Positions 10,740 through 39,800 are shown, numbered from the stretch's first letter. The stretch: DNA of 64,000 bases from Massilia sp. S19_KUP03_FR1 (GCF_036688685.1 NZ_JAQQPS010000007.1:2013-66012), one strand, 5' to 3'. The notes: generated by a model not told the origin, from the letters alone. Program-made: numbers and translations.

Positions 10740-10760
10740 GCTGCACCCGCTTGCAAACGA

Positions 10761-15544: not shown

Positions 15545-15590
15545 AGTACGTTAGTGCAGGCCTGGCTCGCTAGCCAGATCCGCTTTGGGA

Positions 15591-15680: not shown

Positions 15681-15702
15681 TGGATCAAGAAAGGAACTGC
15701 AA

Positions 15703-15866: not shown

Positions 15867-15892
15867 TCTGTCGGCCTGGAATTCCGCTATGG

Positions 15893-15975
15893 GTTGTTTC
15901 CGGCCTGTGGCGCCGGCCGCTGTATTTCTGACCTGGCAACTCGCCATATTCGGCCAGTAGCTGACAAAAGGTGCC
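15893..15975 (+). repeat. Structured intergenic repeat family, copy D (3' part degenerate)
   Basis: GTTTCCGGCCTGTGGCGCCGGCCGCT 5' box is shared with copies B and C. Confidence 0.45.
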
Positions 15976-16119
15976 GGGATATGCCCACCGATTGTCGGGA
16001 GTGAGCTCGAGAACGCATTTGATACACAACAATATTAATTTTACGACAAGTATGGCGTGGTCAATGATTGCCGGACGGTACGGCATGTCGCTGCTGCCAT
16101 CGATACGGGAACCGACACA

Positions 16120-20456: not shown

Positions 20457-20458
20457 TC

Positions 20459-21958: not shown

Positions 21959-21963
21959 ACCGC

Positions 21964-24348: not shown

Positions 24349-25311
24349 ATGCCCATCTCCCCGCCTCTTCCGTATCGCATCGACCTTGCCGCCCGCTCCA
24401 GTATTGGCGCCGGTCCCGACGCCCGCGGGGAAAACCAGGATAACTATTTGACCATCGATGCCGACGGCAACGCCTGCTATCTGGTCGGGCAAGTTGCCTG
24501 CCGGCGCCACGTGGCCGGCTGGCCGCGCGGGCACGCGCGCATGGCCGTGCTCGACGGCATGGGTGGCCACGGCCACGGGCGCGAAGCGGCCGAAGCGGTG
24601 GTCGCGGGCCTGTTGTACCTGCCGGCCTGCAGCAGCCTCGCCGTCCTGGAACAGGCGCTCGACGCCATGCATGCCGACCTGCAGCACGCCTTTGCGCGCG
24701 ATGCCGGGCGGCGTCCGGGCACCACCCTGACGCTGCTGGAAATTCCGCCAGGCCAGCAGGCCATGCTCTACCACGTCGGCGATTCGCGCCTGTACGCCGT
24801 GGCGGACAGCACCATTACCCCCTTGACGGTCGACCATGTGCCGGCCACGTCGTTCGCCATGGCTGGCACGCTGGGCGAAGACGACTGGTGGGAGCAAGTA
24901 CACGGTGAACACCGCCCGCAGATTTCCCAGGCATTCATGCTGGGCAACGCGTTCAGCAATCCGGCAAGGTTGGCCGACGCCTTGTTTCCACTGACACCCG
25001 CCAACTTGCCACCGTGGCTGCGCCTGCTGGCCGACCGCCGCGTCCTCGTCCTGCAGCCGCATGTGGCGTATGTGCTGGCCACCGACGGTTTCTGGTCGTG
25101 TCCGCAGGCGCTGAAATGGATGGCGCGCTGGCCGGCGCTGGCGCGGGGCCGCAGCGACGCCAGGGCGATCGTGGCGGCGCTGTTCGACGCACTGGAAAAC
25201 CATCCGCCCGCCGGCCTGCAGCCGGACAATGCCACGGCAGTGGCGCTGCGCCTGCTGCCGGTTGCCGCAGCGGACGAAACGGCGCTGCCGGAACGCCTGG
25301 GCAGCAACTAA
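24349..25311 (+). CDS. PP2C-family Ser/Thr protein phosphatase
   Basis: ENQDN, LDGMGGHGHG, GTTLTLL and VGDSRLY motifs. Confidence 0.85.
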   Translation: MPISPPLPYRIDLAARSSIGAGPDARGENQDNYLTIDADGNACYLVGQVACRRHVAGWPRGHARMAVLDGMGGHGHGREAAEAVVAGLLYLPACSSLAVLEQALDAMHADLQHAFARDAGRRPGTTLTLLEIPPGQQAMLYHVGDSRLYAVADSTITPLTVDHVPATSFAMAGTLGEDDWWEQVHGEHRPQISQAFMLGNAFSNPARLADALFPLTPANLPPWLRLLADRRVLVLQPHVAYVLATDGFWSCPQALKWMARWPALARGRSDARAIVAALFDALENHPPAGLQPDNATAVALRLLPVAAADETALPERLGSN

Positions 25312-25437: not shown

Positions 25438-26958
25438 ATGAACAAGTGTTGCAATCCCGATCATCCGCACTGCACCGTCTGGGTCATGCCCGGCGCGGAC
25501 AGTTGCGTGCACGGGCATGCGCAGCCAGCGGCCGCGGCAATGTCAGCGGCGCCAGCGCCAGTCGCGCTGACGCCGACGCTCGACAATCCTTTTGACATGT
25601 TGACGGCGCTGCGCCAGCGCCGCGACGATGCCCCGGCCGGCATCCATCCGCGCCATCCGGTGGCGCGCCGGCCGCATTTGCGCATCAGCGGTTTCGATCC
25701 GCGCGCAGCCGGCGGGCGCCAGTCGATCAAAATCGACCTGCGTGGTCTGGCGCCCAACACGGCGACCCAGATGCACATGACGCTCGCGTCCGACCTGTTT
25801 GCCCACGGCAGCGAGCGCCACACGTTTGCGCACAGCGTCGACGGTGACTGGCGCCCCGCGTTCGTGGAATTTTCTTCGCGCGGCCTGGAACATGGCCAGT
25901 ACCGCATCGATGTCGAACTGCGCAGCGAAGAACCGGGCGAGCGTGGCCCGCGCGCAGCGCGCACCTGGGTGTGTACGCTGATGATCCTGGTGCCGCGCCT
26001 GGATGCGTCGCTCACCGATATCCACCAGACCTTCCTGGCCACGCACAAAAACGTGCGCGTGATGGCCGACGACGCCGGCATTGCCCGCGTCAACGCGCCG
26101 GGCGGCGCCAGCATGAATATCGACGTCACCGCACGCAATGCCTCGATCGCGCACCTGAATCTCGATACGCCCAGCGGCAAGGTCGACCACAGCATCGGCA
26201 CCATCGCCTGGGACGAAGACCTGATCGAAATCGCTACGCGCCGCAACGAGCCGCATGCGTTCGCGGCCAGCGCCGCCAGCCTGGTCGACGCTGCGCCGGA
26301 CCACGGTGCGCCGCGCCACGTGCGCCTGTTCGCGCTCGATGAATGCATCCTGGGCCGCTGGGAGAGCGCGGCGCCGAAGGCCGACGTGCTGCTGGCCCAC
26401 TACGGTGAGAATGGCCAGGACCAGGCCGGCCTCACGCGCCGCCTGTCGGCCCGCCATGCCGTCATCCGGCGCGGTTCGCGTGGCTATGAAATCGAAGACG
26501 TCTCGCGCTACGGCATCCTGCTCGACGGCGTCTGGCCGGGCAAGCACCAGCCGATTCCGCTGCGCCTGGGCATGCGCATCGAACTGTCGGCCAGCATCAA
26601 GGGCATCGTCGTCATGGAGGTGGGCGCCCTGCTGCCGAACGGCGTCATCCTGCACCGCATCGACCAGGGCGCGGGCGCCGAGTGCCTGTACCTGATGGAT
26701 CCGGAACGCCACCCCGGCTTTCCGGTGCCAGATTATCCATGCGCGCCGCGCGCCTGCGCGATGCCGGTGCTGTTCCACCGCGATGGCGGCTTCTGGCACC
26801 TTGACGCCAACACCGGACGCGAAACATCCCTCGGTCCGGCCACGCTGGTCGACCGCCTGACACGCTTCGGGCGCCACGTGCGCTTTGCGGGCAAGCCCTA
26901 CCCGGAAGACCAGTCGGTGCGCACAACCGAACGCCGGCGCGCACCAGCACACTCGTAA
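25438..26958 (+). CDS. FHA-domain protein (C-terminal FHA)
   Basis: RRLSARHAVIRRGSRGYEIEDVSRYGILLDG has FHA hallmarks. The Cys/His-rich N-terminus is unusual. Confidence 0.65.
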   Translation: MNKCCNPDHPHCTVWVMPGADSCVHGHAQPAAAAMSAAPAPVALTPTLDNPFDMLTALRQRRDDAPAGIHPRHPVARRPHLRISGFDPRAAGGRQSIKIDLRGLAPNTATQMHMTLASDLFAHGSERHTFAHSVDGDWRPAFVEFSSRGLEHGQYRIDVELRSEEPGERGPRAARTWVCTLMILVPRLDASLTDIHQTFLATHKNVRVMADDAGIARVNAPGGASMNIDVTARNASIAHLNLDTPSGKVDHSIGTIAWDEDLIEIATRRNEPHAFAASAASLVDAAPDHGAPRHVRLFALDECILGRWESAAPKADVLLAHYGENGQDQAGLTRRLSARHAVIRRGSRGYEIEDVSRYGILLDGVWPGKHQPIPLRLGMRIELSASIKGIVVMEVGALLPNGVILHRIDQGAGAECLYLMDPERHPGFPVPDYPCAPRACAMPVLFHRDGGFWHLDANTGRETSLGPATLVDRLTRFGRHVRFAGKPYPEDQSVRTTERRRAPAHS

Positions 26959-28040: not shown

Positions 28041-28057
28041 AAACACCTCAAACGAGC

Positions 28058-28735
28058 TCAGCCTGCCCGCGAAATCACACGCACCGGCGACAGGCAATGG
28101 TCGCGAAAGCCCATGCGTTTGTACAGGCCGTGCGCCGCCGCGTTGTCGTGCATGACATGCAGGAACGGCGTCTCGCCACGCATCAGCTGCAGGCGCGCCA
28201 GTTTGGCCACCAGCCGCCGCGCCATGCCGCGCCCCGCGTAATCGGGATGCGTGCAGACGCCCGACACCTCGCGCAAGCCATCTGCAGCGAGGCGTTCGCC
28301 GGCCATCGCGATCAGGCGCCCGCCTTCAAAATAGCCGAAGTAGTCGCCCAGTTCGATGGTGCGGATCCCGAAAGGTCCCGGCCTGGTCAGTTCGGCCAGC
28401 GCCAGTGCGGCCTGGGCGTGTTCGGGACCGAGTTTCACGGCGTCCGGCGCCTGGTCGTTGGCGGGAATCGGCGCATCCCACACCATGCGGTACATGCTCG
28501 CTTCGTGGTCGAGGCGCCAGCCGTGCGGCACCGGGCCGCTCCAGCCATCGCAGTAGATTTGCTCGCCCGGTGCGCACAGGTGCGCCAGCGCGATGAAGTC
28601 GGGCGAGGCAGCCTGCTCGAAACCCGCGATGGGCGAAAAACCCGGCGCGTAACGGCGCACTTCGCCGCTCCCGACAGCGTATTCGGCTTGCGGACCCTTG
28701 AGGGAATTCCAGAAAATATTATCGAGCAGGCTCAT
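28058..28735 (-). CDS. GNAT family N-acetyltransferase (FR47-like)
   Basis: C-terminal acetyltransferase core (GVCTHPDYAGRGMARRLV). It lies 6 nt downstream of the kinase-FGE gene. Confidence 0.7.
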   Translation of the reverse strand: MSLLDNIFWNSLKGPQAEYAVGSGEVRRYAPGFSPIAGFEQAASPDFIALAHLCAPGEQIYCDGWSGPVPHGWRLDHEASMYRMVWDAPIPANDQAPDAVKLGPEHAQAALALAELTRPGPFGIRTIELGDYFGYFEGGRLIAMAGERLAADGLREVSGVCTHPDYAGRGMARRLVAKLARLQLMRGETPFLHVMHDNAAAHGLYKRMGFRDHCLSPVRVISRAG

Positions 28736-28741: not shown

Positions 28742-31009
28742 TTATTGTTGGTTAATTGATATTGACGACTCTAGCATGCGCTCCGAATGCATCAACTCGC
28801 GTACGACACGAAATCCGACGATATCGTTCGCCATTGTGGCGGAAAAGCCATTTCGTAATGCAGAGCGCAGATAGCGCGGGTGATACAGCCAGCAGCCGCC
28901 ACGCAAAATATGGCGGCTCTGGTCGCCGCCGTTGCGCCAGGCACTGCCGTCCGTCGGCGCGCCGTCGTAGGTATCGTGCACCACATCCTGGACCCATTCC
29001 CAGACGTTGCCGTGCATGTCGAGCAGGCCCCACGGGTTCGGTGCGAACGCCCCCACCGGCGTGGTGCCGCGCCTGAACACGCCGGTGGCGCCGCCATTGT
29101 ACGAAAAGCTGGCATCGTAATTGGCCTGGCCGGCATGGATCGTGTCACCGGTGGAAAACGCCGTGCGCGTGCCGGCGCGGCAGGCGTATTCCCATTCCGC
29201 CTCGGTGGGCAGGCGGTAGCGCTGGCCGGTCTGCTTGCACAACCAGACCAGGTATAGCTGGACGTCATTCCACGACACGCCAACCACGGGGTGCGTATCG
29301 GTTTGCGTGAAGCCGGGTGCTTCCCAGTCGACGTCGCCGTGGTGGCGCCAGCCGGTGGCGCTGGCAAAGCGGCGCCACTCGCCTACCGTGACGGGCGTGC
29401 GGCCCATGGCCAGCGGCCGCTCGATGCCGACCCAGTGCTGCGGCGTTTCGCGCGCGAGCCAGATGCGCTGCGCGCCGGCCGCCAAGGCGATCGCGCGCTC
29501 GTGCTCGGGCGAACCCATGTGGAAACGCCCGGTCGCGATCAGCACCAGTTCCGGGGCAGCTGCGCCATCGGCGAATGTGTCGCGCAAGATGCCTTGCGGG
29601 TCCGCCACCGGGCTGTCAGGCGACGGCAGCAGCTGCGCCAGCTCGGCCTGGTTGCGCGCGGCCGCCTCGGCGCGCGCGCGCTGTTGTTCGGACAGGTAGG
29701 CGGCGGCCGCTTTGGCCTGGTTGGCCTTGCGCTGGGCTTCGTCCTGCTCGGCTTGCGCCTTGGCCGCATCCAGCGCGCGCCGTTCGCGCAGCTGCTCGCG
29801 CAGGATCACCCGGCGTGCGCGCCTGGCCGTCTCGGCCTCGCGCTGGGCGATCTGCTCCTGCTCCTTGCGCTGGCGTACCACCAGCGCCCGCGCCAGCACG
29901 GCCTGCTCTTCCGCCTTTCTACGGGCCACCTGTTGGGCCGCCTGTTTTTCGGCACGGACCTGGGCCGCCACCTGGCGCGCGACCAGGTCGTCGGCCGATG
30001 GTGGACGCGGACCACGCAGGCGCGCCAGCAATTGCGTCACGCTGGGCTGGCGCAGCTTGGGATCGAAGGCAAAGCCCTCCTGCAGCGCGCCCCACTGGGC
30101 CGGGGTAAGCGAGCCCGGCGACTGGTCCGGCAAATGCGCCAGTTCGGCGCGGCCGGTGAGCATCTGGTAAATCATGACGGCCACCGCATACACGTCCAGC
30201 GTGCGCACCGGCACCATGGCGGCGTTATTTGATTCCGGCGCGCGGTACACCAAGGTACCCGAATCGGCCGGCGCCTCGCGGCTGGCCAACTGCTCCGGCT
30301 CGGCGCCACGCGAGCGCGCCGCGATGCCGAAGTCGAGCAGCTTGACGTCACCGCCCTTCGTGACGAACACATTGGCCGGTTTGATGTCGCGGTGGACCAG
30401 GTGCTGCTTTTCCCACGCATAATCGAGCGCCACGCCGACCGGCTCCAGCAGGTTCAACACGCGTTCGAGCGGCAGCGCGCCGGCATGCGACATCAGGCCG
30501 GCCAGGTCTTCGCCGTCGAGGTATTCCATGATGATGAAATAACTCATCGTCGCCGGATCCTGGGCCCAGTCGTAGACACGCACGATGTGTTCGTGCGCCA
30601 GCGCGCGCGCGCGCGTGGCTTCTTCGACCAGCAAGCGGGCGAAGTGCGGGCTGTGGGTCAGCTGGGGCGGGATGATCTTCAATGCCACCACGGCGCTGTG
30701 ACCGAGTTCGGCGTGGGTGGCCAGGTCAAGGGCCTGCCACACCTGGCCCATGCCGCCCAGCGCCACCATGCGCTCGAGCCGGTAGCGGCGGTTTGCGGGC
30801 CCCACTTCCTGGCCGGTCATCAGGCCGATCTCGGTGCCCGACCCTGGCGCGCTGCCAGGCCCCGACCCCGCCGCGCCGGGCGTCCGGCCCGGCGGTGCGT
30901 ACTCCGCATCGAGAATGGCGTTCTTGCGGCGCTCGAACTCGTCCCTGCTGAGCAGGCCGTCGTCGTGCAGCGCGCGCAGTTCGCGGATCTTGTCGATGGC
31001 GGTGTGCAT
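28742..31009 (-). CDS. Multidomain SHOCT - Ser/Thr kinase - coiled coil - FGE-sulfatase (SUMF1-like) protein
   Basis: N-terminal SHOCT-like (LRALHDDGLLSRDEFERRKNAIL). Kinase motifs HRDIKPANVFV, DFGIA and APE. Long Ala/Glu/Arg-rich coiled coil. C-terminal FGE motifs (VSWNDVQLYLVWL, RLPTEAEWEYACRAG, HGNVWEWVQD). Confidence 0.85.
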   Translation of the reverse strand: MHTAIDKIRELRALHDDGLLSRDEFERRKNAILDAEYAPPGRTPGAAGSGPGSAPGSGTEIGLMTGQEVGPANRRYRLERMVALGGMGQVWQALDLATHAELGHSAVVALKIIPPQLTHSPHFARLLVEEATRARALAHEHIVRVYDWAQDPATMSYFIIMEYLDGEDLAGLMSHAGALPLERVLNLLEPVGVALDYAWEKQHLVHRDIKPANVFVTKGGDVKLLDFGIAARSRGAEPEQLASREAPADSGTLVYRAPESNNAAMVPVRTLDVYAVAVMIYQMLTGRAELAHLPDQSPGSLTPAQWGALQEGFAFDPKLRQPSVTQLLARLRGPRPPSADDLVARQVAAQVRAEKQAAQQVARRKAEEQAVLARALVVRQRKEQEQIAQREAETARRARRVILREQLRERRALDAAKAQAEQDEAQRKANQAKAAAAYLSEQQRARAEAAARNQAELAQLLPSPDSPVADPQGILRDTFADGAAAPELVLIATGRFHMGSPEHERAIALAAGAQRIWLARETPQHWVGIERPLAMGRTPVTVGEWRRFASATGWRHHGDVDWEAPGFTQTDTHPVVGVSWNDVQLYLVWLCKQTGQRYRLPTEAEWEYACRAGTRTAFSTGDTIHAGQANYDASFSYNGGATGVFRRGTTPVGAFAPNPWGLLDMHGNVWEWVQDVVHDTYDGAPTDGSAWRNGGDQSRHILRGGCWLYHPRYLRSALRNGFSATMANDIVGFRVVRELMHSERMLESSISINQQ

Positions 31010-31016: not shown

Positions 31017-32984
31017 CTAGGTTCCCAACGGCGCGCCACAGACGCCGCAAACCTGTTCGTGCGCCAACCCAGGGTGACCGTGGGCGCAGCGCCGCACCAG
31101 GCCTGCCGCCAGCTGCGCCTGCGACGTCAACGCCGTCTTGTTGACGTCGTTCTGGATGGTCAGCAGGTCGAACTGGTGACGCCGGTCCTTGTCCACTTCC
31201 GCATCGCGGCGGGCGCCTGCTTCCCGCATGGCTTCCTGCGCCATGCGCTGCGCTTCCTGCGGCGTGACGCCGGCCTGCGCTGCCGCCACCTGGGCCAGTG
31301 CGGCCAGTTGGCTGGCATCCATACCGGCGTGGACACGTGTTTTCAGGTAGTCGGCCAGCACAGCGGCATTCGGTGCCGGCGCCATGGCCAGCTTGGTTGC
31401 ATCGTCTACCGCGCTCATGGCCTGCATGCGCGCCAGGTCGTGGCTGTGGACCGCATCCTGGCTGTCGCGCGCCATGGCGTGGCGGCGCTCGTCGCCGTCG
31501 AGCGCGATGTCGCTGGCGATGCGTTGCGAGCGGGCGTCCGCTTCGATCGTGCGCAGCAGCTTTTCGTGCTGGGCCAGGCTGTCGCGCTGACCGCCGCTGC
31601 GGCGCATGTCGCCCAGCTGCTGCGCGGTGGTTTCGTCCTCAACCGATGCCGCGCGTTCGGTCTCGCGCAGGCGCGCCTGGTGGGCGGCCGCGAGCAACGC
31701 GCGCCGGCCCTGGTATGCATCCTCCTCGATGTCATGCTCACGGCGCGCGGCGGCCACTTCCATCTCGCGCAGGCGCGCCAGCTCGGCGCGCTGGTGCGCG
31801 GCGTCGGCAATCCCGCCGGCCTGCTCGATCTTGTTCCTGATTTGCTGCTGCAGCACCTGGTGCGCGAAACGCTGCTGCGCCAGCTGGCGCGACTGCAGTT
31901 CGTCCTGGTGCGCCAGCGCCAGTTCGGCGTGCATATGGACTTCGGCCAGTTTACGCAAGTGCTGCCACTGCGTTTTCTCGTCGCCGCGCGCCAGGCTTTT
32001 CTGTGCCATCTCGTGTTCGAGTTCAGCCAGCACTTCCCCCGCGCCACGCTCGACCGCCTGTTTTTTGGTGGCCGAATCCATGATGCGCGCATACAGTTCG
32101 ATCTCGCGCGCGCGCATGGCCTGGCTGCGCTCTGCGCTTTGCAGCGTCAGTTCGGCCTGCTCGATGGACGCATCGGCGCGCAGTTCCTGGCGGCGCTTGT
32201 CCAGGCGCGCGTCCTGCTCCGCGCGGCGGATGCGCTGCCATTCTTCGTCGTCGTACAGCTGTTCGAGGTTGCGCGCGTGCTCCACCTGCACCTGACGCTC
32301 GTCGGCGGCCAGCCACAGGCTGGCGACCTTGTCGCGGTTGGCGTCGAATTTATCGTGGCGCAGTTCGATCGTGTCGACCTGGGTGACGGCCAGGCCGAAC
32401 TGGGCCAGGCGCAGTTTCAGGGCGGCCTGCAGGCGCTCGTCGAGTTGCGGGCGCAGCGCGCGGTTGGCGGCCATCTCGCGCAGCGAACGGGCGCCCACGA
32501 ATTCGGCCGCCAGCTGGCGCACGGACGGCGCCAGCAATTCGCGCAGCTGGGCGCTGGCCACCGTGCCCGGCGCGGTCATGAAGTGGCGCGCAAAGGCGGC
32601 GACGTTGTCGACCTGCACACTGATCGTCATGCGCGCGTCAACCAGTAAATGTTCGGAGGTGGCCAGCCCGCCAAAGCTGAACGACACCGGCAGCGCGCTG
32701 GTGCGGGTGATCAGGATCTCGGCATGGCCGTCGCGCAGCAGGTGATTGAGGCGCGTAAAAAAACCTTCGATTTCGTACTCGCCCTGAGGCACCTCGGTGG
32801 CCTGGTCGCCCTGCAGGATGTAGGCACGGGTGGTGGCCGGCACGCGCAGGGTTTTGACGAAGATGCCCGACAAGGCCGACACGCCAAAAAACACGGCCAG
32901 GTCGTCCGGGCCGGCGATCCAGCGGTTGTCCACCAGGACCGGGCTACCTCGTGCTGCGCCTGCATTTGCCATCTCGACCATCAT
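31017..32984 (-). CDS. SPFH/band-7 (flotillin/YqiK-like) protein with long coiled coil and C-terminal Cys/His zinc-ribbon-like tail
   Basis: SPFH core (ILITRTSALPVSF...LLVDARMTISVQV...FGLAVTQVDTIEL). About 350 aa of coiled coil. C-terminal CAHGHPGLAHEQVCGVC. Start chosen at the ATG behind the GAGGGAG SD; the ORF is open to 33155. Confidence 0.75.
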   Translation of the reverse strand: MMVEMANAGAARGSPVLVDNRWIAGPDDLAVFFGVSALSGIFVKTLRVPATTRAYILQGDQATEVPQGEYEIEGFFTRLNHLLRDGHAEILITRTSALPVSFSFGGLATSEHLLVDARMTISVQVDNVAAFARHFMTAPGTVASAQLRELLAPSVRQLAAEFVGARSLREMAANRALRPQLDERLQAALKLRLAQFGLAVTQVDTIELRHDKFDANRDKVASLWLAADERQVQVEHARNLEQLYDDEEWQRIRRAEQDARLDKRRQELRADASIEQAELTLQSAERSQAMRAREIELYARIMDSATKKQAVERGAGEVLAELEHEMAQKSLARGDEKTQWQHLRKLAEVHMHAELALAHQDELQSRQLAQQRFAHQVLQQQIRNKIEQAGGIADAAHQRAELARLREMEVAAARREHDIEEDAYQGRRALLAAAHQARLRETERAASVEDETTAQQLGDMRRSGGQRDSLAQHEKLLRTIEADARSQRIASDIALDGDERRHAMARDSQDAVHSHDLARMQAMSAVDDATKLAMAPAPNAAVLADYLKTRVHAGMDASQLAALAQVAAAQAGVTPQEAQRMAQEAMREAGARRDAEVDKDRRHQFDLLTIQNDVNKTALTSQAQLAAGLVRRCAHGHPGLAHEQVCGVCGAPLGT

Positions 32985-33090: not shown

Positions 33091-34071
33091 TCAGAAAATT
33101 CCGATTTGCGCGACACAGGCCAGGCTGGCGCCACGGGCGCGCACCGCATCGGCAAACTCTGGCGGCAGCATGGTCTGCCAGGCTTGCGGCAGCAAAATCC
33201 GGTCGCCCGGCGCGGCTTCGGCCGCGATCAGGGCGCATTTCGGCACTATCCCTTCGACCGTGTCGACCTGGCCCGTGTGCCAGCCATGCGAGGTACCCGA
33301 GGCGATGATGCGGCCGCGCGCCACATAGTCGCGCCCGCGCGCCAGCCGGTCGGCCAGCACCAGCGCCAGTTCGTACGAATTGCCCTGGAAGCGCTGCTGG
33401 CCAAACCTGATGGTGGTGCGCCAGCGCCCGGGGACGCAGCGGTCGAAATCGCGCGCCCCCAGCAGCGCCTGGCGCACTGCCAGCTGGCGCGTGACATCCA
33501 GGCCCGGGACGGTCACGGCGTCGTCGTCAAGGTCGCCCGCCAGCAGCGGATACACGCTGACCTCGACCCAGCACAGGCTGTCGTTGATGCCGCCGCTGTG
33601 CAGCGGGAACCAGGCGCGCGCGCTCGACACCACGTGCGCCGCATCCGGCTGGCCGGTCAGCGCGCCCAGGTGCGCCATGCCGCCTGCGCCGCCGAGCAAG
33701 GCGGGCGGGTCGGCGTCGATGGTGTGGCCGTCGATACGGCCCAGCTGCCACTGGTCGGACCAACCGTTGGCGCACGGCTCGTTAAGGTGCACCAGGCCGC
33801 GCACCATCCGGTCGGCCAGCACGGCGGCGAGTTCCCAGTCACGCGTGCCGGGGTCGATGTCGATGCTCAGCACGACCTGATCGCGGCTGTCGATGCGCGG
33901 CTCGGTGTGGCGTGCCAGGCGCACCACCTGCTGCATGCGCTCGGCCAGCCCCGGCACGCCGCTGCACTTGACGTCGGCACGGCCGGCGCGCGGGCGCCGC
34001 GTCGCCGTGACGGTGGCAAAGCTGCCGTTGGCCAGCAGGCAGCGGCAGGCGGCACGATCGGGACAGTTCAT
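33091..34071 (-). CDS. Lon/S16-like Ser-Lys protease domain protein with internal duplication
   Basis: GNSYELALVLADRLARG (Ser motif) ... IIASGTSHGWHTGQVDTVEGIVPKCALIAAEAAPGDRILLP (Lys motif) resemble the Lon C-terminal domain. An earlier half-repeat DWELAAVLADRMVRGL. ATG overlaps the upstream stop (ATGA). Confidence 0.55.
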   Translation of the reverse strand: MNCPDRAACRCLLANGSFATVTATRRPRAGRADVKCSGVPGLAERMQQVVRLARHTEPRIDSRDQVVLSIDIDPGTRDWELAAVLADRMVRGLVHLNEPCANGWSDQWQLGRIDGHTIDADPPALLGGAGGMAHLGALTGQPDAAHVVSSARAWFPLHSGGINDSLCWVEVSVYPLLAGDLDDDAVTVPGLDVTRQLAVRQALLGARDFDRCVPGRWRTTIRFGQQRFQGNSYELALVLADRLARGRDYVARGRIIASGTSHGWHTGQVDTVEGIVPKCALIAAEAAPGDRILLPQAWQTMLPPEFADAVRARGASLACVAQIGIF

Positions 34072-35057
34072 GCGCTCTCCATGGCGCGGCGCCCGGCCAG
34101 CGCAGCTTCGAGATTGGCGGCGATCCGTTCGGCGTCGTCGAGCAGGTCGGCATTCGCCCTGGACCCGGCGCGGGCCAGCCAAGCCCAGGTTTCGTCCAGT
34201 GCATCCGTGGCGCACAGCGTGTGGCGCGCGCGGCGCTGCTGAGCACCGAGCGGCAAGGGCCGGGCGGGTGCGGCCAGTGCCAGTGCGGGCATCGTCAATA
34301 CGGCCAGGCTGGCATGGTCGAAACGCTGCACCAGCGCCCTCTGGCGGGCAAACCCATCGACATCGAGCAGGCGCAGGCGGCTGGTCACGACGGGTAGTTC
34401 GAGGAACAGGCGGCGCAGCGCGGCAGCGTCCGTGAGGCAAGCTGCCGGCTCCGGCAAGGGCGCAGTCACGAAGGCGCAAACGGGTACATCGGCCAGCGCG
34501 CGTGCTGCCAGCAACGCGGCGTAATCGACCTGCCCGGCCAGGTCGACCGGGATGCACTCGTCGACGGTGACGCCGAAGCGCATGTACAGCAATTCATTGA
34601 GGCCGGCGCGAAACGCGTTCCATTCTTCCAGCAAGGTGCAGGGTGGCAGGTCGAGGTGGCCCTGCGCCAGTTCGCGCTGCAGGGCCGCATCGAGTGCGGC
34701 ACGAAAGGCGTCCAGCGCGACCGACTGCCCGCCTTCGCCGGCCAGGAATAAATCGAAGCGCTGCTGGGCAGCCAGCGGATCGGGACTGTCGACCACCACG
34801 CGCAGTTGCAGGCCAATTTCGGGCGCGGCCAAAAATGGCGTGAGAACCAGCTGGTACGGGCCGGGATGAAAACACCACGCGTGTCCACCGGCCACGAGCG
34901 CCATGCGCGCGCCCTCTGCGAAGCGGCGCGTGCGACCGGCCGCATCGACCGCCACGCCCACGCAGCCGGGCGGCACCACGCCCACCATGCGCGCGGCCAT
35001 GACGGCGCCGCCCAGGGTGACGGGTGCGGGACGGCGCCGCTGGAACAGGTTTTTCAC
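34068..35057 (-). CDS. Hypothetical protein (operon gene C)
   Basis: Ala/Leu-rich 330-aa ORF. Proposed GTG start forms a GTGA overlap with the stop of gene B. Its TGA overlaps the ATG of the Lon-like gene. Confidence 0.45.
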   Translation of the reverse strand: MKNLFQRRRPAPVTLGGAVMAARMVGVVPPGCVGVAVDAAGRTRRFAEGARMALVAGGHAWCFHPGPYQLVLTPFLAAPEIGLQLRVVVDSPDPLAAQQRFDLFLAGEGGQSVALDAFRAALDAALQRELAQGHLDLPPCTLLEEWNAFRAGLNELLYMRFGVTVDECIPVDLAGQVDYAALLAARALADVPVCAFVTAPLPEPAACLTDAAALRRLFLELPVVTSRLRLLDVDGFARQRALVQRFDHASLAVLTMPALALAAPARPLPLGAQQRRARHTLCATDALDETWAWLARAGSRANADLLDDAERIAANLEAALAGRRAMESA

Positions 35058-35592
35058 GGCAGCGCTTCGACGGCGAACCCGGCGCCACAATGCTGAAAGT
35101 GGTCGGCAGGCGCGCGCACGAACGGCCACGCGCTTTCGCATTCGCCATCGGCGTCAAGGCGGCCAGACAGCACCACCCCACCGGCGCCATCGAGCACGCG
35201 CAGCATCGGCTGCGCGGCCAGCAGCTGGCGCGCGAACGGCGCCGCTGCGGCCAGTTGCAGGATTACGCGGCAAGCATCCGGGGCCTTGATGAAGTGCAGT
35301 GTCCAGAAACCGTCGTCGGTGACCAGTTCATCCAGTGCAGCGCCACTGTCGGCGGCGCGCAGCATGCCGCGGCTGGCGCGCCAGGCGCCAGAGCGCTCGC
35401 CGACCAGCTGACGCAAGCGCCGGATCGTCAGGGGGGACGCCGCCAGCGCCGCTTTTTCAGCAGCCGACAGCGGCAGGCTGCCGTCGATGGCTGCGCGCAG
35501 TACGGCATCGGCCAGCACCAGGCGGTCGTTGGCCACGGGCGCGACCAGCAGCGCCGCGCGCAGCTTGCGTTCGAATGGATCGTTCGGTGTCA
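35054..35592 (-). CDS. Hypothetical protein (operon gene B)
   Basis: 179 aa. SD AAAGGAG before the ATG. ATG overlaps the stop of gene A (ATGA). Confidence 0.55.
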
Positions 35593-36783
35593 TGTGGTCT
35601 CCTTTTCGCGCGCCGCCTGCATCAGGCGGGCGATTGCCGCATCGCGGCGTTTTCTCAGGGTCGGCAGCGACACGCCGGCCAGCACGGCCAGCTGCTGCAT
35701 CGTCGGCAACGCGCGCGTCGCCGGGTCGCACCAGGCGTCCGGATACACATCATCCTCCGGGCCGGTCAATTTCAGGTACACCGCCAGCCGCACCGGCAAG
35801 CCATCGTCCATCATCATGCGGGCCGCCCAGCTGTGCCGGTCTTCGGCCAGTTGCGCCATCTGGATAAAGCCGGGGGGCAGTGCAACACTGGCGGCAACGG
35901 CGTCGCTGGCAGGGTCGAGCACCAGTGGCACGGTGTCGACGACGTCCATCGGCAGGTCGATCGGTTCCTGGCGCGCTTCCAGGATACGGTCCGGTGCGGG
36001 CGCCGTCTGTTCGGGCGCGGCCAGCACGCGCCAGTAGTCGTCCAGCCAGTCGGTGGCTTCACCGGCGTCGAGGCGCCAGTCGGCGTCGCGGTTGGCGGAC
36101 AAGGCTTCGTACTCGGCGATTTCGGCCAGCATGACGCCGATCTTGGCCGGATTGTCTTTCAGCGCCTCGAAGCGCTTCGAGCGCGTGTGCAGCGGACCGC
36201 CGCACGACGCGCTCCAGCGCAGGACCCATTCGGGGCGGCACCCGGCAATCGACGTCATCTGGCGCACCTCGATCGGGGCAGCGAGTACTTCGCGCCCGAG
36301 AATCGCACCCACCTGCAGCGCGTGGCTGCGCCAGTCGGCAAACAGGCGGGCAATCTCATGGTAGGCCGTGTCGAGCATGCGGTAGGCGTAGATGCGGTTC
36401 GGGCTGCACGCGCGCCCGCACGCGACCTGGTAGTTGTCCGAGTCGACCTTGTCGCGCAGCGTGGCATACATGTCGTTGACCTTCTTGCGCAGCAGCGCTT
36501 CGCCCGCATCGACCGGCAACGATGCCTGGAACTCGTCCCAGTCGCCGGGCCGCGCCTGCAATTCGTACAACAGCGTCAAAGCCAGGTCGCGCACGCTGTC
36601 GCCGTAGCTGTTGCCGGGACCGTCGAAGCGGCTGCCAACGCGGTACAAGGCCGCTGACATCTGCTCCACATACGCGTCGAGGCACAGCGCGGGGGCGGCA
36701 AAAGCGCCGAGCGAGCACTGGCCGAGCAGTTTGCGCACCTGCTCCCAACCGTGTTCCTGGTACCGGGTTCCCGGCAAACGCAT
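35590..36783 (-). CDS. Hypothetical protein with C-terminal sigma70-region-4-like HTH (operon gene A)
   Basis: SD GAAGGGAG before the ATG at 36783. C-terminal LPTMQQLAVLAGVSLPTLRKRRDAAIARL resembles an ECF-sigma region 4 HTH. The N-terminal 330 aa has no recognisable domain. Confidence 0.55.
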   Translation of the reverse strand: MRLPGTRYQEHGWEQVRKLLGQCSLGAFAAPALCLDAYVEQMSAALYRVGSRFDGPGNSYGDSVRDLALTLLYELQARPGDWDEFQASLPVDAGEALLRKKVNDMYATLRDKVDSDNYQVACGRACSPNRIYAYRMLDTAYHEIARLFADWRSHALQVGAILGREVLAAPIEVRQMTSIAGCRPEWVLRWSASCGGPLHTRSKRFEALKDNPAKIGVMLAEIAEYEALSANRDADWRLDAGEATDWLDDYWRVLAAPEQTAPAPDRILEARQEPIDLPMDVVDTVPLVLDPASDAVAASVALPPGFIQMAQLAEDRHSWAARMMMDDGLPVRLAVYLKLTGPEDDVYPDAWCDPATRALPTMQQLAVLAGVSLPTLRKRRDAAIARLMQAAREKETT

Positions 36784-36851: not shown

Positions 36852-39800
36852 TCAAGGGACAAGGCGTCCGTCAGAACCGGATTTCCCCTTCTTTTCCTGA
36901 TTCTGCAGCATCGCCCGCAGCACGGCCGCGACAACCGGCGCCGCGTGGTCGCCGCCGCTCGCCTCCGAGTGGCTGACGAACGTGGCGAACCCCAGCCGGT
37001 GGCGCTGGCCGGGCAGGCTGCCCGGCTCCAGCCAGCCAGTGAACCAGACCGTGGCGGTGGCGCCATCGCTGCCCGAGGCCGGCCCGGTTGGCGCGGTGCC
37101 GGTCTTGCCCGACAAGCCGCGCCGCACCAGCGCCAGTTCCGGCGCCCCGAAAGCATGGGCCGCCGTGCCGACGTCGACCACGCCCTTCATGCCGGCGCGG
37201 ATCCGGTCCAGCCGCACGCCCGTCGCGGGCGCGTCGGCGGCGACTGCCGGCCGGCCATCGAGGGCCAGCAACAGGCGTGGGGCCGGGATGCGTCCCTGCC
37301 CGACAGCGGCGGCGGCCAGCGCCATCTGCAACGGCGTGGCCTGCATGCGCAGTCCAATGGCCATCTGGCGCAGTTCGTGGCGCGAGTGGATCGGGTCGAT
37401 ATGGGCAGCGCTGGTCTGCAAGGCATCCCACGCCGACCAGTTGAAATCATCAGGCAACAGGCCGCCATCGAGGCGCAGCTGCCGCTCGAAGCCGAGCCGG
37501 TGCGCCATGGCGACAATCGGCCGCACGCTCTCGAGCGCCGCCGGCTCAAGCCCGGCCAGGTCGGGGGCGCCGCCGGCGCCGCGTCCGAACAGGCTGCGGT
37601 CGGACAGCTCGCCGGTCCAGGCGAACCAGGTATTCAAACTCCAGGTCAGCGCCTGCGCCATGCCAAGGCGCCCATCCTGGGCGCGCCGGCCCGCCAGCTG
37701 CTCGCGGTAGTTGGTGATGCGCGCCTGCCTGACGGCCGGGTCCCACGGATAGGCCGGCGCGTCGGTCTGAAAGGCGAAGCCGCGCGAGCGCGCCAGCCGG
37801 TCGATTTCTGCCAGCGGTATGCCATTCATGAGCGCGTCGAGTTGCGGGTCGCGCTGCGCGGCCAGCTCCAGGCCGAGCGCGCTGATCACCTTGAAGCTTG
37901 ACCCCGGACTCCGGTGGGCGCCGCCATCGTGCTGCAGCGCCGGCAGGCGCAAGGGACTGCGGGCCGGATCGAGCCGGTCGAAGTCGCGCACCTCGGCCCA
38001 GTTGGCGGCGTCGACCTGGCCCGTGCCGGCGCCAGCGGCAGCCAGCACGTCGCCGGTTTCCGTGTCAAGGATAACCATGCCGGCGTGGCGGCCGTCCGGC
38101 GCCGCCATGCCACCCGTGCAATGGCTGCCGTCCCAGCGGCCGCGGCGCATGCCAATGCAATCGAGCGCGCCCTGGCTGGCCGCCTGCAGCGCCAGGTCGA
38201 GCGTCAAGGTGGCGGCATGCGCGCCGCCGTCGCCCACCCGCCCCAGCATGCCCGCAATGCTGTTGGCCTGGTCGGCGCGGTAGCCCAGCAGCGGCGCCAG
38301 CCCCGCCGCGCTGGCAGCGGCGCTGGGTGCGCCGTCGCGCCACAAGGCGGCGCCGTTGCGGTCGACCAGGGTCACTGGCGCCAGGCTGGCGCGCGCCACG
38401 GTCGGGCGCGCAGCCATGCTTTGCCAGGCCAGTTTGCCCCCGGCCAGGCCGATGTGGCGGTAAGCCGCGTCGCCCGGCGCCGCCAGCGTTTGCATGGGCG
38501 CCACGTCCAGCCGCACGCTGGTGGCACCCGGCAGCAGCCCGAGGCGCAGTTCCTGGGCCGCATCGGCTGCCGGACACGCGCGCCCGGTGCAGGCCGGCTC
38601 GCTGGCCAGCAGCCGCGCGCCTGCTACCGAACCGACGCCACCGAGCACTATCAGGCGCAAGATTTCCGTGCCTTGCGCCGGCTGCGCCAGCGTGTAGGTC
38701 AAGCGCGCCGGGCCGGACCCGGGCCAGTCCTGGATCCGGCGCCAGGCATCCCAGCCCTGCGGCAGCTGGGCGAACAGGCGGGCGGCAGCGGCCGGCATCG
38801 TCTGCGCAACGGTGGCGGGCGCGCCACCCACGCTCGCTTGCCAGGTGCCGGCCAGCGCCTGCGGGCGCGTGCGCCATGCCAGCAGGCGCCGCTCACTATT
38901 AAACAGTTCCACCTGGGCGCGCACGAAATCGCCGTCGGCGCGGTGGTACAGCCGTTCGAGGCGTTTCAATGCGGCTGGATCGAGCGCCGTGTGCTCCCAA
39001 CCGGCCAGCGCTGCGGCGCGCGCCGGCCCGGGCGCTGCGCGCCATGCGGCCAGGTCGCGCGGCGCCAGCATGATCAGGCCATCGGGGCCCAGGCGCAGCA
39101 GGCCGCCGGCGACCAATTGCGCGAACAAGGCCTGGTCTTCCAGCGCCGGCGCGGCCACCACCGGCACCTGGTAGCGCCCGGCCGGCAGCCAGGCAGTGTC
39201 GGTGACGGCGCCGTACGCCATCACCAGCGCCCGGCCCGCTAGCGCCGCCGCGGGACGCAGCAACTGCACCTGCAACTCGCCCGCGGCCGCACAGCTGGCA
39301 CTGGCCCGGCGCTGCAGGCGCAGCGCCGCAGTTTGCCCGCCCGTCGTCCACAGCAGCCAGCCGTCGCGCCCGAGCGGCACCGATGCCGCCGCGCCCGACA
39401 CGATGCGGCCGGCGCCGGCGTCGCCGATCCAGTGTACATTCTCCACCCCGGCCACGCCTTCCCAGCGCAGCCGCGCGGCCTTCGCCACGCCACTTACTTC
39501 CACCCGCGGCGTCAGCGCGCCGGGCGCAGCCAGCACCACATTGCGCGGCGTGACACTGGTGCTGCCCGATGCATTGCGCGCGACCCACGCCGCGACATCG
39601 CTGAACTGGTAACCGAGGCGCAGCGGCAGCAGGCGCCCGGTCGCGCTGTCGGCCATCTGGCTGCACAGGTCGATCCGCAGCGGCGCCTCGCTGCGCATGT
39701 TCGACGCAATCAGCAATGCCGCCGCGCCGCGCTGCTCGAGCGTGATGCCGGGCATGGCGGCGACCGTGAAGGCGGCGCCGGGCAAGGTGGCGTGGAAGGC

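What the first reader, a model, noticed from the sequence alone, without database searches (positions are those of the whole stretch)
28742..31009. SHOCT - Hanks kinase - coiled coil - FGE/SUMF1 fusion protein
The N-terminal SHOCT motif is usually a short oligomerisation or membrane-association module. The kinase domain is intact (HRDIKPANVFV, DFG, APE). About 200 residues of Ala/Glu/Arg/Gln coiled coil then link it to a formylglycine-generating-enzyme-like domain that retains the WEW/HGNVWEW substrate-binding motifs. The gene is 7 nt downstream of the SPFH gene. That suggests a membrane-microdomain-anchored kinase whose FGE-like domain acts as a ligand sensor rather than an enzyme.
Basis: partly seen in the sequence, partly recalled or inferred. 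Interest (0 to 1): 0.55.

Follow-up and report, generated by a model that had tools for sequence, protein, structure and literature searches.

The report
SHOCT-kinase with a non-catalytic FGE-like domain
The gene is real and encodes an intact Ser/Thr kinase fused to a PvdO-like domain that cannot be a formylglycine-generating enzyme; this fusion type is already catalogued, but here it sits in a conserved, apparently undescribed gene cluster with an SPFH protein, a phosphatase and cell-wall-synthase-like genes.

Summary
The ORF is confirmed on the minus strand at 28742-31009 (755 aa). It matches 100% a protein of Massilia sp. S19_KUP03_FR1. Its parts are SHOCT (res 6-33), a Hanks kinase with all catalytic motifs invariant, a 137-aa charged helical linker (not ~200 aa, no heptad core), and a C-terminal FGE-fold domain.

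The FGE-fold domain is closest to PvdO (5hha, E 1e-43; model TM 0.77). Both FGE copper-binding cysteines are replaced (Cys336 to invariant Tyr709, Cys341 to invariant Leu714). No sulfatase gene lies in the 64 kb. Sulfatase maturation is therefore excluded, and a binding or sensor role is the best reading, though not proven.

Kinase-FGE fusions and the SHOCT-kinase-FGE combination are already in the literature and in NCBI naming.

The new element is context. The Zn-ribbon SPFH gene 7 nt upstream is conserved across Oxalobacteraceae. The pair belongs to a syntenic ~23-kb locus with an FHA-like protein, an Stp1-like PP2C, a second kinase, a RodA/FtsW-like and a PBP2-like protein, and five unknown conserved proteins. 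Much of this set recurs in a divergent metagenomic locus.

Neither the kinase nor the SPFH protein has a transmembrane segment, so "membrane-microdomain anchoring" remains unshown.

The parts
28742..31009 (-). Whole gene: SHOCT, Hanks Ser/Thr kinase, charged helical linker and PvdO-like FGE-fold domain (755 aa).
   Evidence: ORF and translation. Pfam domains. 100% identical to P0001 of Massilia sp. S19_KUP03_FR1.
30911..30994 (-). SHOCT bihelical motif (res 6-33).
   Evidence: Pfam PF09851, 29.8 bits against a cutoff of 27. Two helices in the low-confidence AF2 model. It is the most conserved segment among ~65%-identical orthologues, at 81% identity.
30011..30793 (-). Kinase domain (res ~73-333).
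   Evidence: GGMGQVW G-loop, VALK Lys111, HRDIKPxN, DFG and APE are all invariant in 17 orthologues, as is the activation-loop SGT Thr252. Best solved-structure matches are PknA and PknB, E 4e-29.
29600..30010 (-). Charged Ala/Glu/Arg/Gln-rich helical linker (res 334-470, 137 aa).
   Evidence: Composition and lack of a heptad hydrophobic register. Helices at 339-365 and 377-460 in the low-confidence model. Least conserved structured part, 53% identity. Absent in P0245 and replaced by a transmembrane helix in P0230.
28790..29599 (-). PvdO-like FGE-fold (C-type-lectin-like) domain (res 471-740), lacking the FGE Cys pair.
   Evidence: Pfam E 3.5e-57. PvdO 5hha E 4e-43 against true FGE 2e-18. AF2 pLDDT 77.9, pTM 0.82. 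Foldseek best hit PvdO, TM 0.77. Tyr709 and Leu714 occupy the Cys336 and Cys341 positions.
31017..32981 (-). Zn-ribbon-bearing SPFH/Band-7 protein with a long charged helical region (654 aa). Its stop is 7 nt before the kinase start.
   Evidence: Pfam Band_7, 29.4 bits. Orthologues carry PF13240 plus PF01145. C-terminal CxH...CxxC motif. No transmembrane segment. Adjacent to the kinase in all Oxalobacteraceae loci that have flanking sequence.
33091..36783 (-). Four conserved genes of unknown function in the same operon: E (33091-34071), D (34068-35006), C (35054-35593) and B (35596-36783).
   Evidence: Gene boundaries come from orthologues. No significant Pfam, NCBIfam or PADLOC hits. Homologues sit next to kinase-FGE genes in the divergent locus L084/L085 at 32-43% identity.
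36852..40091 (-). PBP2-like protein (1079 aa) with 1-2 transmembrane segments and a large unknown N-terminal region. First gene of the minus-strand operon.
   Evidence: Pfam Transpeptidase E 7.6e-13. NCBIfam pbp2_mrdA, 53 bits, far below its cutoff. SSFK, SLN and KTGT motifs present.
25438..26958 (+). Conserved 506-aa protein with an N-terminal Cys/His cluster and a divergent FHA-like C-terminal domain.
   Evidence: In a profile search against PDB, all 9 hits are FHA domains, the best being Rad53 FHA1 at E 0.037. The GR...SxxH...DxSxxG pattern is conserved. It is linked to the kinase in every genus and lies directly upstream of the SPFH gene in Undibacterium.
24349..25311 (+). PP2C-type Ser/Thr phosphatase (320 aa).
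   Evidence: Pfam PP2C_2, 26.3 bits against a cutoff of 24. NCBIfam Stp1/IreP family E 5e-13, below its cutoff. DGMGGH, GDSR, DGFW and DNAT motifs present.
17278..22422 (+). Convergent operon: second Hanks kinase (17278-18180), RodA/FtsW-like SEDS protein (18177-20456), conserved unknown protein (20459-21958) and a 2-TM SH3_3 protein (21991-22422).
   Evidence: Pfam, NCBIfam and kinase motifs. Present in 25 of 25 long metagenomic loci. The last three genes have homologues in L085 at 39-41% identity.
28058..28735 (-). GNAT/FR47 acetyltransferase 6 nt downstream of the kinase. A strain-specific passenger, not part of the conserved set.
   Evidence: Pfam. Present only in the closest relatives L001 and L002 and absent in L003 and other genera.

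Best explanation
This is an active cytoplasmic Hanks-type Ser/Thr kinase. It is a core gene of Massilia and related Oxalobacteraceae.

Its C-terminal PvdO-like FGE-fold domain is a non-FGE recognition module that binds a ligand or a partner protein. Its N-terminal SHOCT hairpin couples it to the co-translated Zn-ribbon SPFH protein encoded 7 nt upstream.

Together with a divergent FHA-like protein and an Stp1-like PP2C phosphatase, it forms a phospho-threonine signalling module. In Massilia and Duganella this module is genetically embedded with a second kinase and an accessory RodA/FtsW-like and PBP2-like pair. It therefore most likely controls an envelope or cell-wall process.

Shown here:
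- The domain architecture.
- Intact kinase motifs.
- Loss of the FGE cysteine pair.
- Absence of a sulfatase gene in the window.
- Conserved synteny.

Inferred:
- Binding by the FGE-like domain.
- Docking of SHOCT on the SPFH protein.
- Reading of phospho-threonine by the FHA-like protein and resetting by the PP2C.
- The envelope target.
For: Kinase: all catalytic motifs are invariant in 17 orthologues.

FGE-like domain:
- It is PvdO-like by sequence and by model.
- Tyr709 and Leu714 replace Cys336 and Cys341.
- Of 460 related FGE-fold domains in the 150 best cluster representatives, only 2 have both Cys.
- The same domain type is fused to kinase, TIR or caspase heads.
- The SHOCT and FGE-like parts are more conserved than the kinase itself: 81% and 73% against 66%.

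SPFH link:
- Adjacency is conserved in five genera and in L166.
- SHOCT is most often fused to SPFH/Band_7 domains in other proteins (PMC3581485).

Wider locus:
- FHA-like partner, PP2C, SEDS-like and PBP2-like genes with intact SxxK, SxN and KTG motifs.
- The locus is syntenic in 25 metagenomic loci.
- Homologues of nine genes of the set (B, C, D, E, the FHA-like gene, SPFH, SH3, the 499-aa unknown and the SEDS-like gene) recur beside kinase-FGE genes in a ~40%-identical locus.
Against: - No ligand or partner of the FGE-like domain is identified.
- PvdO, ToxD, CalU17 and EgtB show that this fold can be enzymatic without the Cys pair.
- Neither the kinase nor the SPFH protein has a transmembrane segment.
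- The SHOCT-SPFH interaction is inferred only from adjacency and from fusions elsewhere.
- In the divergent locus L085 the SPFH gene is not adjacent to a kinase, only nearby.
- The FHA assignment is weak (E 0.037), and the Asn of the FHA STNG motif is Tyr here.
- The PBP-like gene and genes B-E are absent next to the kinase in Janthinobacterium and Undibacterium.
- The FGE-like domain is lost in Undibacterium, so it is not essential to the core module.
Confidence: 0.5

Rival explanations
1. Truly bifunctional protein. The FGE-fold domain is an oxidoreductase or other enzyme of the SUMF1/EgtB/PvdO type acting on a small molecule or a protein residue, and the kinase regulates it or is regulated by it.
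For: [quoted passage not shown]
- The closest structure is PvdO, which is needed for dihydropyoverdine oxidation (PMC6206403).
- ToxD and CalU17 are also close in fold.
- The loop that replaces the FGE active-site loop is invariant among orthologues: WLY[HN]PRYLR.
Against: - PvdO itself was purified without a cofactor and was inactive (PMC6206403).
- The query scores 193 bits against a 500-bit cutoff for the PvdO equivalog.
- There is no DinB_2 domain, which EgtB and OvoA need.
- The domain is cytoplasmic, whereas PvdO is periplasmic (PMC9305348).
- The same loop differs in the sister subfamilies P0245 and P0230. This fits variable binding specificity better than a conserved catalytic site.
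- The domain is dispensable in Undibacterium.
Confidence: 0.2
2. Conflict or anti-phage sensor kinase. The FGE-like domain recognises an invader molecule, and the kinase triggers a protective or abortive response.
For: - The kinase domain matches PADLOC PD-T4-6 and mad6 models and NCBIfam MADS6.
- FGE-fold domains serve as sensors or effectors in STAND and vWA-MoxR conflict systems (PMC13581612; PMC7159879).
- The divergent locus L084 also carries caspase-FGE and trypsin-FHA genes and three kinase-FGE paralogues.
Against: - The PADLOC hits cover only the generic kinase domain, and no neighbouring gene matches any defence model.
- The locus is vertically inherited and syntenic across a bacterial family, with native GC3.
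- The FGE-like domain is highly conserved rather than diversifying, and there is no DGR-like repeat.
- It is linked to SEDS-like and PBP-like genes, not to nucleases or toxins.
Confidence: 0.12
3. Conventional sulfatase-maturating FGE fused to a kinase.
For: Pfam FGE-sulfatase match at E 3.5e-57, and retention of the GNxWEW and RGG fold motifs.
Against: - Both copper-binding and catalytic cysteines are absent, and the replacing residues are invariant.
- No sulfatase gene or CxPxR signature lies in a real ORF within the 64 kb.
- The domain is closer to PvdO than to any true FGE.
Confidence: 0.02

Closest known systems
Kinase-FGE-sulfatase fusion proteins: Chlamydia trachomatis Pkn1, the 'Proteo1' bacterial STK family, and NCBI 'bifunctional serine/threonine-protein kinase/formylglycine-generating enzyme family protein'
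   Same: An N-terminal Hanks kinase followed by a C-terminal PF03781 domain. The SHOCT paper even lists one SHOCT-Pkinase-PG_binding_1-FGE-sulfatase protein (PMC3581485). 'Proteo1' STKs include an FGE-sulfatase architecture (bioRxiv 10.1101/2025.01.12.632604). The NCBI name is given to many orthologues.
   Different: This protein has a 137-aa charged helix in place of PG_binding_1. No function is known for any member's FGE-like domain. The conserved SPFH / FHA-like / PP2C / SEDS-like / PBP-like neighbourhood was not found described. Similarity to Pkn1 itself was not computed here.
PvdO (P. aeruginosa, PDB 5hha)
   Same: Best sequence match (E 4e-43) and best structural match (37% identity, TM 0.77). 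It also lacks the FGE cysteine pair.
   Different: PvdO is a stand-alone, Sec-exported periplasmic protein of the pyoverdine pathway (PMC9305348). Here the domain is internal to a cytoplasmic kinase. The score is 193 bits against a 500-bit equivalog cutoff. The window has no pyoverdine genes.
Formylglycine-generating enzyme (human SUMF1, S. coelicolor and T. curvata FGE)
   Same: Same fold (TM 0.65-0.69). GNxWEW and RGG motifs and a Trp299 equivalent (Trp670) are retained.
   Different: Cys336 is Tyr and Cys341 is Leu. The Ser333 position is Cys here but Ser in most orthologues. There is no sulfatase partner.
Non-catalytic FGE-fold binding modules: DGR variable proteins such as TvpA, the T6SS immunity protein Tsi3, PorK/GldK, and FGS sensors of STAND and vWA systems
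   Same: An FGE or C-type-lectin fold used for recognition without FGE chemistry, always C-terminal to the other domains (PMC7159879; bioRxiv 10.1101/2021.05.21.445229; PMC13581612). TvpA and PorK appear among the fold hits.
   Different: This domain is not hypervariable, no DGR is present, and the context is not a defence island.
Actinobacterial fhaA-fhaB-pstP-rodA-pbpA-pknA-pknB cluster, and Stk1/Stp1 PASTA-kinase modules (comparison from general knowledge)
   Same: One locus combines two Hanks kinases, a PP2C phosphatase (best NCBIfam match is the Stp1/IreP family), an FHA-like protein, a SEDS protein and a class-B-PBP-like protein.
   Different: - The organism is a Gram-negative betaproteobacterium.
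- There are no PASTA repeats and no transmembrane kinase.
- The candidate sensor is a cytoplasmic FGE-fold domain.
- An SPFH protein, SHOCT and five unknown proteins are added.
- The SEDS-like and PBP-like proteins are very divergent and carry large extra regions.
B. subtilis YdjI-type Band-7 plus Zn-ribbon proteins, and Band-7-SHOCT fusions of PSP-associated operons
   Same: A soluble SPFH domain combined with a zinc ribbon. SHOCT and SPFH are functionally coupled, and SHOCT-like domains are predicted to place domains at the inner membrane face (PMC11237479; PMC3581485).
   Different: SHOCT here is on the neighbouring kinase, not on the SPFH protein. There is no PspA in the locus. Homology to YdjI was not tested.

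Membership tests
Hanks-type (eukaryote-like) Ser/Thr protein kinase, PF00069 | Profile match above the curated cutoff. | tested here: met
   108.4 bits against a cutoff of 31.7. PknA and PknB structures match at E 4e-29.
Hanks-type (eukaryote-like) Ser/Thr protein kinase, PF00069 | Catalytic residues: G-loop, VAIK Lys, alpha-C Glu, HRD...N loop, DFG and APE. | tested here: met
   GGMGQVW, VALK (K111), E130, HRDIKPxN (D208, N213), DFG (D226) and APE are invariant in 17 orthologues.
Formylglycine-generating enzyme (SUMF1/FGE) | FGE fold (PF03781). | tested here: met
   Pfam E 3.5e-57. Model TM 0.65-0.69 to solved FGEs.
Formylglycine-generating enzyme (SUMF1/FGE) | Copper-binding and catalytic Cys pair (human Cys336 and Cys341). 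| tested here: not met
   They align to Tyr709 and Leu714, both invariant among orthologues.
Formylglycine-generating enzyme (SUMF1/FGE) | A sulfatase substrate gene (CxPxR) nearby. | tested here: not met
   No PF00884 hit on about 55 ORFs. tblastn with AtsA gives a best E of 0.27, and no signature lies in a real ORF. Only the 64-kb window was examined, not the whole genome.
PvdO (dihydropyoverdine dehydrogenase, NF051459) | Equivalog score cutoff. | tested here: not met
   193.4 bits against a cutoff of 500.
PvdO (dihydropyoverdine dehydrogenase, NF051459) | Periplasmic stand-alone protein in a pyoverdine (pvdMNO/pvdP) context. | tested here: not met
   The domain is internal to a protein with no signal peptide or transmembrane segment. 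No pvd genes were found in the window.
PvdO (dihydropyoverdine dehydrogenase, NF051459) | The glutamate reported as essential in PvdO. | tested here: inconclusive
   The PvdO 'WGE' Glu aligns with Tyr709. I could not confirm that this is the essential residue, because Ringel 2018 is not held in the library.
EgtB/OvoA/SenA sulfoxide synthases | An N-terminal DinB_2 domain that completes the active site, and the equivalog score. | tested here: not met
   No DinB_2 match. EgtB scores 61.8 bits against a cutoff of 360.
SHOCT domain, PF09851 | Profile match above the gathering score, and a two-helix hairpin. | tested here: met
   29.8 bits against 27. Helices at 4-16 and 22-36 in a low-confidence model. 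81% conserved. The N-terminal position is atypical but documented (PMC3581485).
SPFH/Band-7 (the neighbouring gene) | Profile match above the gathering score. | tested here: met
   29.4 bits against 23.6, though only 97 of 176 profile positions are covered. NCBI names it 'SPFH domain-containing protein'.
SPFH/Band-7 (the neighbouring gene) | A membrane anchor (transmembrane helix or hairpin), as in stomatin, HflK/C and flotillin. | tested here: not met
   No 19-residue window reaches a Kyte-Doolittle score of 1.6. Peripheral association is not testable with these tools.
Anti-phage kinase systems (PD-T4-6, MADS Mad6) | Family-specific match beyond the kinase domain, and partner genes. | tested here: not met
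   Hits cover only res ~64-460. MAD6 scores 105.6 bits against a cutoff of 460. No neighbour matches PADLOC.
STK/PP2C/FHA plus SEDS/bPBP cell-wall signalling cluster (actinobacterial type) | Co-located kinases, PP2C, SEDS protein and class-B PBP. | tested here: met
   Synteny.
STK/PP2C/FHA plus SEDS/bPBP cell-wall signalling cluster (actinobacterial type) | FHA-domain proteins. | tested here: inconclusive
   The 506-aa protein hits only FHA domains, but at E 0.037-0.75. The 499-aa protein has no support.
STK/PP2C/FHA plus SEDS/bPBP cell-wall signalling cluster (actinobacterial type) | A transmembrane kinase with extracellular PASTA sensor repeats. | tested here: not met
   No transmembrane segment and no PASTA repeats.

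The most novel reading that the evidence does not exclude
The SHOCT-kinase-FGE protein is the sensing arm of an undescribed, vertically inherited module of about 15 genes in Oxalobacteraceae. In this reading, an accessory RodA/FtsW-like and PBP2-like synthase pair is controlled by two Hanks kinases, an Stp1-like PP2C and an FHA-like reader. These are assembled on a soluble Zn-ribbon SPFH scaffold through the SHOCT hairpin. The cytoplasmic FGE-fold domain takes the place of PASTA repeats as the input, for example for a cell-wall precursor or for one of the five conserved unknown proteins.
Probability: 0.3. Interest if true: 0.65.

Novelty: new variant of a known kind. Interest (0 to 1): 0.4.

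Why it matters
Kinase-FGE fusions are common in bacterial genomes, and no FGE-like domain in one has a known role. This case has several useful properties:
- The catalytic option of FGE chemistry is cleanly excluded.
- The domain is more conserved than the kinase.
- A natural domain-loss lineage exists (Undibacterium).
- The gene sits in a fixed neighbourhood that names candidate partners: SPFH, FHA-like, PP2C, and SEDS-like and PBP2-like proteins.

That makes two questions directly testable in a culturable genus. What does a non-catalytic FGE fold sense on a kinase? What does SHOCT dock to? If the link to the SEDS/PBP pair holds, this would be a Gram-negative counterpart of the actinobacterial PknA/PknB cell-wall signalling cluster, using a different sensor and an SPFH scaffold.

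Tried and rejected
- **Exact look-up of the window protein:** The look-up of encoding contigs returned nothing. I used close orthologues instead.
- **First AF2 run:** the whole protein with 17 close orthologues gave pLDDT 52.9. I did not use it for fold search. Only the domain-level rerun was usable.
- **PDB sequence searches:** the SPFH protein, the PBP-like C-terminus and the 499-aa protein found nothing.
- **FHA in the 499-aa protein:** by eye I thought it also ended in an FHA domain. hhalign against the FHA-like protein gave probability 0.08, so I dropped the idea.
- **SHOCT transfer from the SPFH gene:** I asked whether SHOCT had been transferred by a shifted gene boundary. None of the 120 listed SPFH orthologues carries SHOCT, so there is no support.
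- **Metagenome scan:** anchored on the 499-aa protein, it returned only relatives of at least 51% identity. It confirmed synteny but gave no distant lineages.
- **Promoter and terminator scan:** counts were no better than chance.
- **DGR hypothesis:** rejected. There is no template or variable repeat, and the nearby 'RVT_3' gene is RNase H-like.
- **PADLOC:** only generic kinase hits.
- **Essential PvdO glutamate:** it could not be mapped because the source paper is not held.
- **Literature searches:** none found a description of this locus.
Full report
**Observation**

The window holds a 755-codon ORF at exactly 28742-31009, on the minus strand. The ATG at 31009 is the start shared by all orthologues. 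The longer GTG start at 31039 is not conserved.

Pfam finds three domains:
- SHOCT at residues 6-33, 29.8 bits against a gathering score of 27.
- Pkinase at 84-293, E 5e-31.
- FGE-sulfatase at 485-737, E 3.5e-57.

The upstream gene (31017-32981, minus strand) passes the Band_7/SPFH gathering score. Its stop lies 7 nt before the kinase ATG. The protein is 100% identical to one from Massilia sp. S19_KUP03_FR1.
- The strand is minus.
- The linker is 137 residues (334-470), not about 200.
- The linker is 70% Ala/Glu/Arg/Gln/Lys, with only 20 strong hydrophobic residues in 122, and no heptad register is enriched. It is a charged helix whose coiled-coil nature is not shown.

**The kinase**

The glycine loop, Lys111, the HRDIKPxN loop, DFG, APE and an activation-loop Thr252 are invariant in 17 orthologues of 64-91% identity. 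The nearest solved structures are mycobacterial PknA and PknB. I take it to be an active Hanks kinase. There is no transmembrane segment anywhere in the protein, so all of it, including the FGE-like domain, is cytoplasmic.

**The FGE-like domain**

- By sequence it is far closer to PvdO (5hha, E 4e-43) than to true FGEs (about 2e-18).
- A domain-level AlphaFold model (pLDDT 77.9, pTM 0.82) has PvdO as its best Foldseek match (TM 0.77, 37% identity). True FGEs follow at TM 0.65-0.69, then CalU17, ToxD, PorK, the DGR protein TvpA and EgtB.
- In the alignment to human FGE, the copper-binding Cys336 and Cys341 correspond to Tyr709 and Leu714. Both are invariant among orthologues. The Ser333 position is Cys here but Ser in most orthologues.
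- The loss is general for this class. Among 460 related FGE-fold domains in the 150 best 50%-cluster representatives, only two carry both cysteines.
- No sulfatase gene or sulfatase signature in a real ORF was found in the 64 kb.
- The domain is not a PvdO equivalog (193 bits against 500). It lacks the DinB_2 domain that EgtB-type enzymes need.

**How new is the architecture?**

It is not new.
- Kinases were listed as members of the SUMF1 family as early as 2003 (cited in bioRxiv 10.1101/2021.05.21.445229).
- The paper that defined SHOCT lists a SHOCT-kinase-PG_binding_1-FGE-sulfatase protein and notes Chlamydia Pkn1 as a kinase-FGE fusion (PMC3581485).
- A recent atlas assigns an FGE-sulfatase architecture to its 'Proteo1' kinase family (bioRxiv 10.1101/2025.01.12.632604).
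- NCBI names many orthologues 'bifunctional serine/threonine-protein kinase/formylglycine-generating enzyme family protein'.
- Non-catalytic FGE-fold domains used as recognition modules are documented in DGR variable proteins and conflict systems (PMC7159879), STAND sensors (PMC13581612) and the T6SS immunity protein Tsi3 (bioRxiv 10.1101/2021.05.21.445229).

The full-length orthologous group itself is narrow. In the species-level genome scan, matches covering residues 1-740 occur in Massilia, Duganella and Janthinobacterium, with a fragment in Pseudoduganella. Kinase-FGE proteins of cyanobacteria, Acidobacteria and Alcanivorax match only from residue ~50-75 onward, that is, without SHOCT. At 50% clustering only two clusters are full-length orthologues. 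Rarer cousins exist in which a transmembrane helix (P0230) or nothing (P0245) replaces the linker.

**Context, the main addition of this work**

The Zn-ribbon SPFH gene lies directly upstream of the kinase in every Oxalobacteraceae locus with flanking sequence, at 29-91% identity. Around the pair lies a syntenic block of two convergent operons.

Minus strand:
- A PBP2-like protein with intact SSFK, SLN and KTGT motifs.
- Four conserved unknown genes.
- The SPFH gene.
- The kinase.

Plus strand:
- A second Hanks kinase with intact motifs.
- A RodA/FtsW-like SEDS protein.
- A conserved 499-aa unknown protein.
- A two-TM SH3_3 protein.
- Further on, a PP2C phosphatase whose best NCBIfam match is the Stp1/IreP family, with all PP2C signature motifs.
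- A 506-aa protein whose profile hits only FHA domains in the PDB, weakly (best E 0.037), with GR...SxxH...DxSxxG conserved.

In 25 long metagenomic loci anchored on the 499-aa gene:
- The kinase / SEDS-like / 499-aa / SH3 block is present 25 of 25 times.
- The PP2C and FHA-like genes are present 23 of 25 times.
- The SHOCT-kinase-FGE gene is present 19 of 25 times within the 10-kb flank.

Two comparisons are informative.
- In three Undibacterium species the neighbourhood shrinks to FHA-like, SPFH and SHOCT-kinase genes. The kinase there is only 441-480 aa and ends in 'SWEEAQRYLAAIS'. This is a vestige of the FGE-fold helix 'VSWNDVQLYLVWL'. The FGE-like domain was therefore lost there and is accessory to a conserved trio.
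- A divergent metagenomic locus (kinases ~42% identical) carries three kinase-FGE paralogues, two caspase-FGE fusions and a trypsin-FHA protein. It also has homologues of nine genes of the Massilia set: B, C, D, E (D and E fused into one gene), the FHA-like gene, the SPFH gene, the SH3 gene, the 499-aa gene and the SEDS-like gene, at 28-46% identity.

The association is thus older than the Massilia lineage, although the SPFH gene is not adjacent to a kinase in that locus.

**Mechanism**

Shown:
- An intact kinase.
- An FGE fold without FGE chemistry.
- Strong purifying selection on SHOCT (81% identity among ~65% orthologues) and on the FGE-like domain (73%), both above the kinase (66%) and the linker (53%).
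- Tight, conserved coupling to the SPFH gene.
- Conserved linkage to PP2C, FHA-like, SEDS-like and PBP-like genes.

Inferred:
- The FGE-like domain binds a ligand or partner and so gates or targets the kinase.
- SHOCT docks the kinase to the SPFH assembly. The argument is the 7-nt spacing, the conserved adjacency, and the published fact that SHOCT is most often fused to SPFH/Band_7 domains (PMC3581485).
- Phospho-Thr is read by the FHA-like protein and erased by the PP2C.
- The output concerns the accessory SEDS/PBP machine.

I put about 0.5 on this package. The individual steps range from about 0.9 (active kinase; not an FGE) to about 0.45 (envelope target).

- Neither the kinase nor the SPFH protein has a transmembrane segment.
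- The single experimental test of SHOCT as an oligomeriser was negative (PMC3581485).
- A membrane-proximal role of SHOCT-like domains is only a prediction (PMC11237479).

'Membrane-microdomain-anchored' is therefore not established.

**Rivals**

- *A second, unknown enzymatic activity of the FGE fold, of the PvdO, ToxD or CalU17 type.* This is the main rival (about 0.2). The loop replacing the FGE active site is invariant among orthologues. It differs in sister subfamilies, however, and the domain can be lost.
- *A conflict or anti-phage role* (about 0.12). It is suggested by generic PADLOC kinase hits and by the caspase-FGE neighbours in the divergent locus. It fits poorly with a vertically inherited, syntenic, compositionally native locus and a non-diversifying domain.
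- *Sulfatase maturation.* This is essentially excluded.

**Verdict**

The fusion is real and its FGE-like domain is not an FGE. As an architecture it is a known kind with unknown function.

What raises it above routine is the conserved, apparently undescribed locus. That locus resembles the actinobacterial kinase/phosphatase/FHA/RodA/PBP cluster. It differs in having a cytoplasmic FGE-fold domain in place of PASTA repeats, together with an SPFH protein and SHOCT.

Interest is 0.4. Novelty is a new variant of a known kind.

Noticed in passing
window 10000-16000: A low-GC island (52-57% GC against a 65% window mean) lies directly upstream of the kinase/SEDS cluster. It has short ORFs without Pfam hits and one ankyrin-repeat protein (13168-13800, plus strand). 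It may be horizontally acquired.
   Followed up: partly
window 50000-52500: A second low-GC patch (54%) carries an Acyl_transf_3 gene (50003-51103, minus strand) and an Exo_endo_phos gene (51385-52440, plus strand).
   Followed up: partly
window 3714-5123 and 5324-6751 (minus strand): Two tandem paralogous DUF1565 / right-handed beta-helix proteins of 469 and 475 aa.
   Followed up: no
window 27603-28735: A GNAT/FR47 acetyltransferase lies 6 nt downstream of the kinase, and a divergent HTH_3 regulator sits beside it. Both occur only in the closest relatives (L001, L002) and are absent from other Massilia and other genera. This looks like a recent insertion into the convergent junction of the two operons.
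   Followed up: yes
window 18177-20456 and 36852-40091: The SEDS-like protein has an extra ~430-residue N-terminal region with several transmembrane segments. The PBP2-like protein has about 800 residues of unknown sequence before its transpeptidase module, which has intact SSFK, SLN and KTGT motifs. Both are far below the NCBIfam cutoffs for RodA/FtsW and PBP2.
   Followed up: partly
L084/L085 (JGI contig Ga0558718_00097): A divergent locus has three kinase-FGE paralogues, two Peptidase_C14(caspase)-FGE fusions, a Trypsin_2-FHA protein and a DUF4384 protein, next to homologues of the Massilia cluster genes. Here the same FGE-fold module is attached to different enzymatic heads within one locus.
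   Followed up: partly
L016-L018 (Undibacterium spp.), ~10001-11440: The SHOCT-kinase orthologues are only 441-480 aa and end in a short 'SWEEAQRYLAAIS'-like tail. This tail matches one helix of the FGE fold, so it is a vestige of a lost domain. The SPFH orthologue there carries its zinc ribbon at the N-terminus instead of the C-terminus.
   Followed up: yes
L012 (Massilia sp. H-1, CP087969): All cluster genes match only in fragments, and the kinase ORF breaks after 179 aa. This is either a frameshift-rich assembly or a decaying locus.
   Followed up: no
window 41149-41808 (plus strand): An RNase H-like (RVT_3) gene flanks the PBP-like end of the cluster. The same flank is seen in metagenomic locus L166, so it marks the conserved boundary of the block.
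   Followed up: partly
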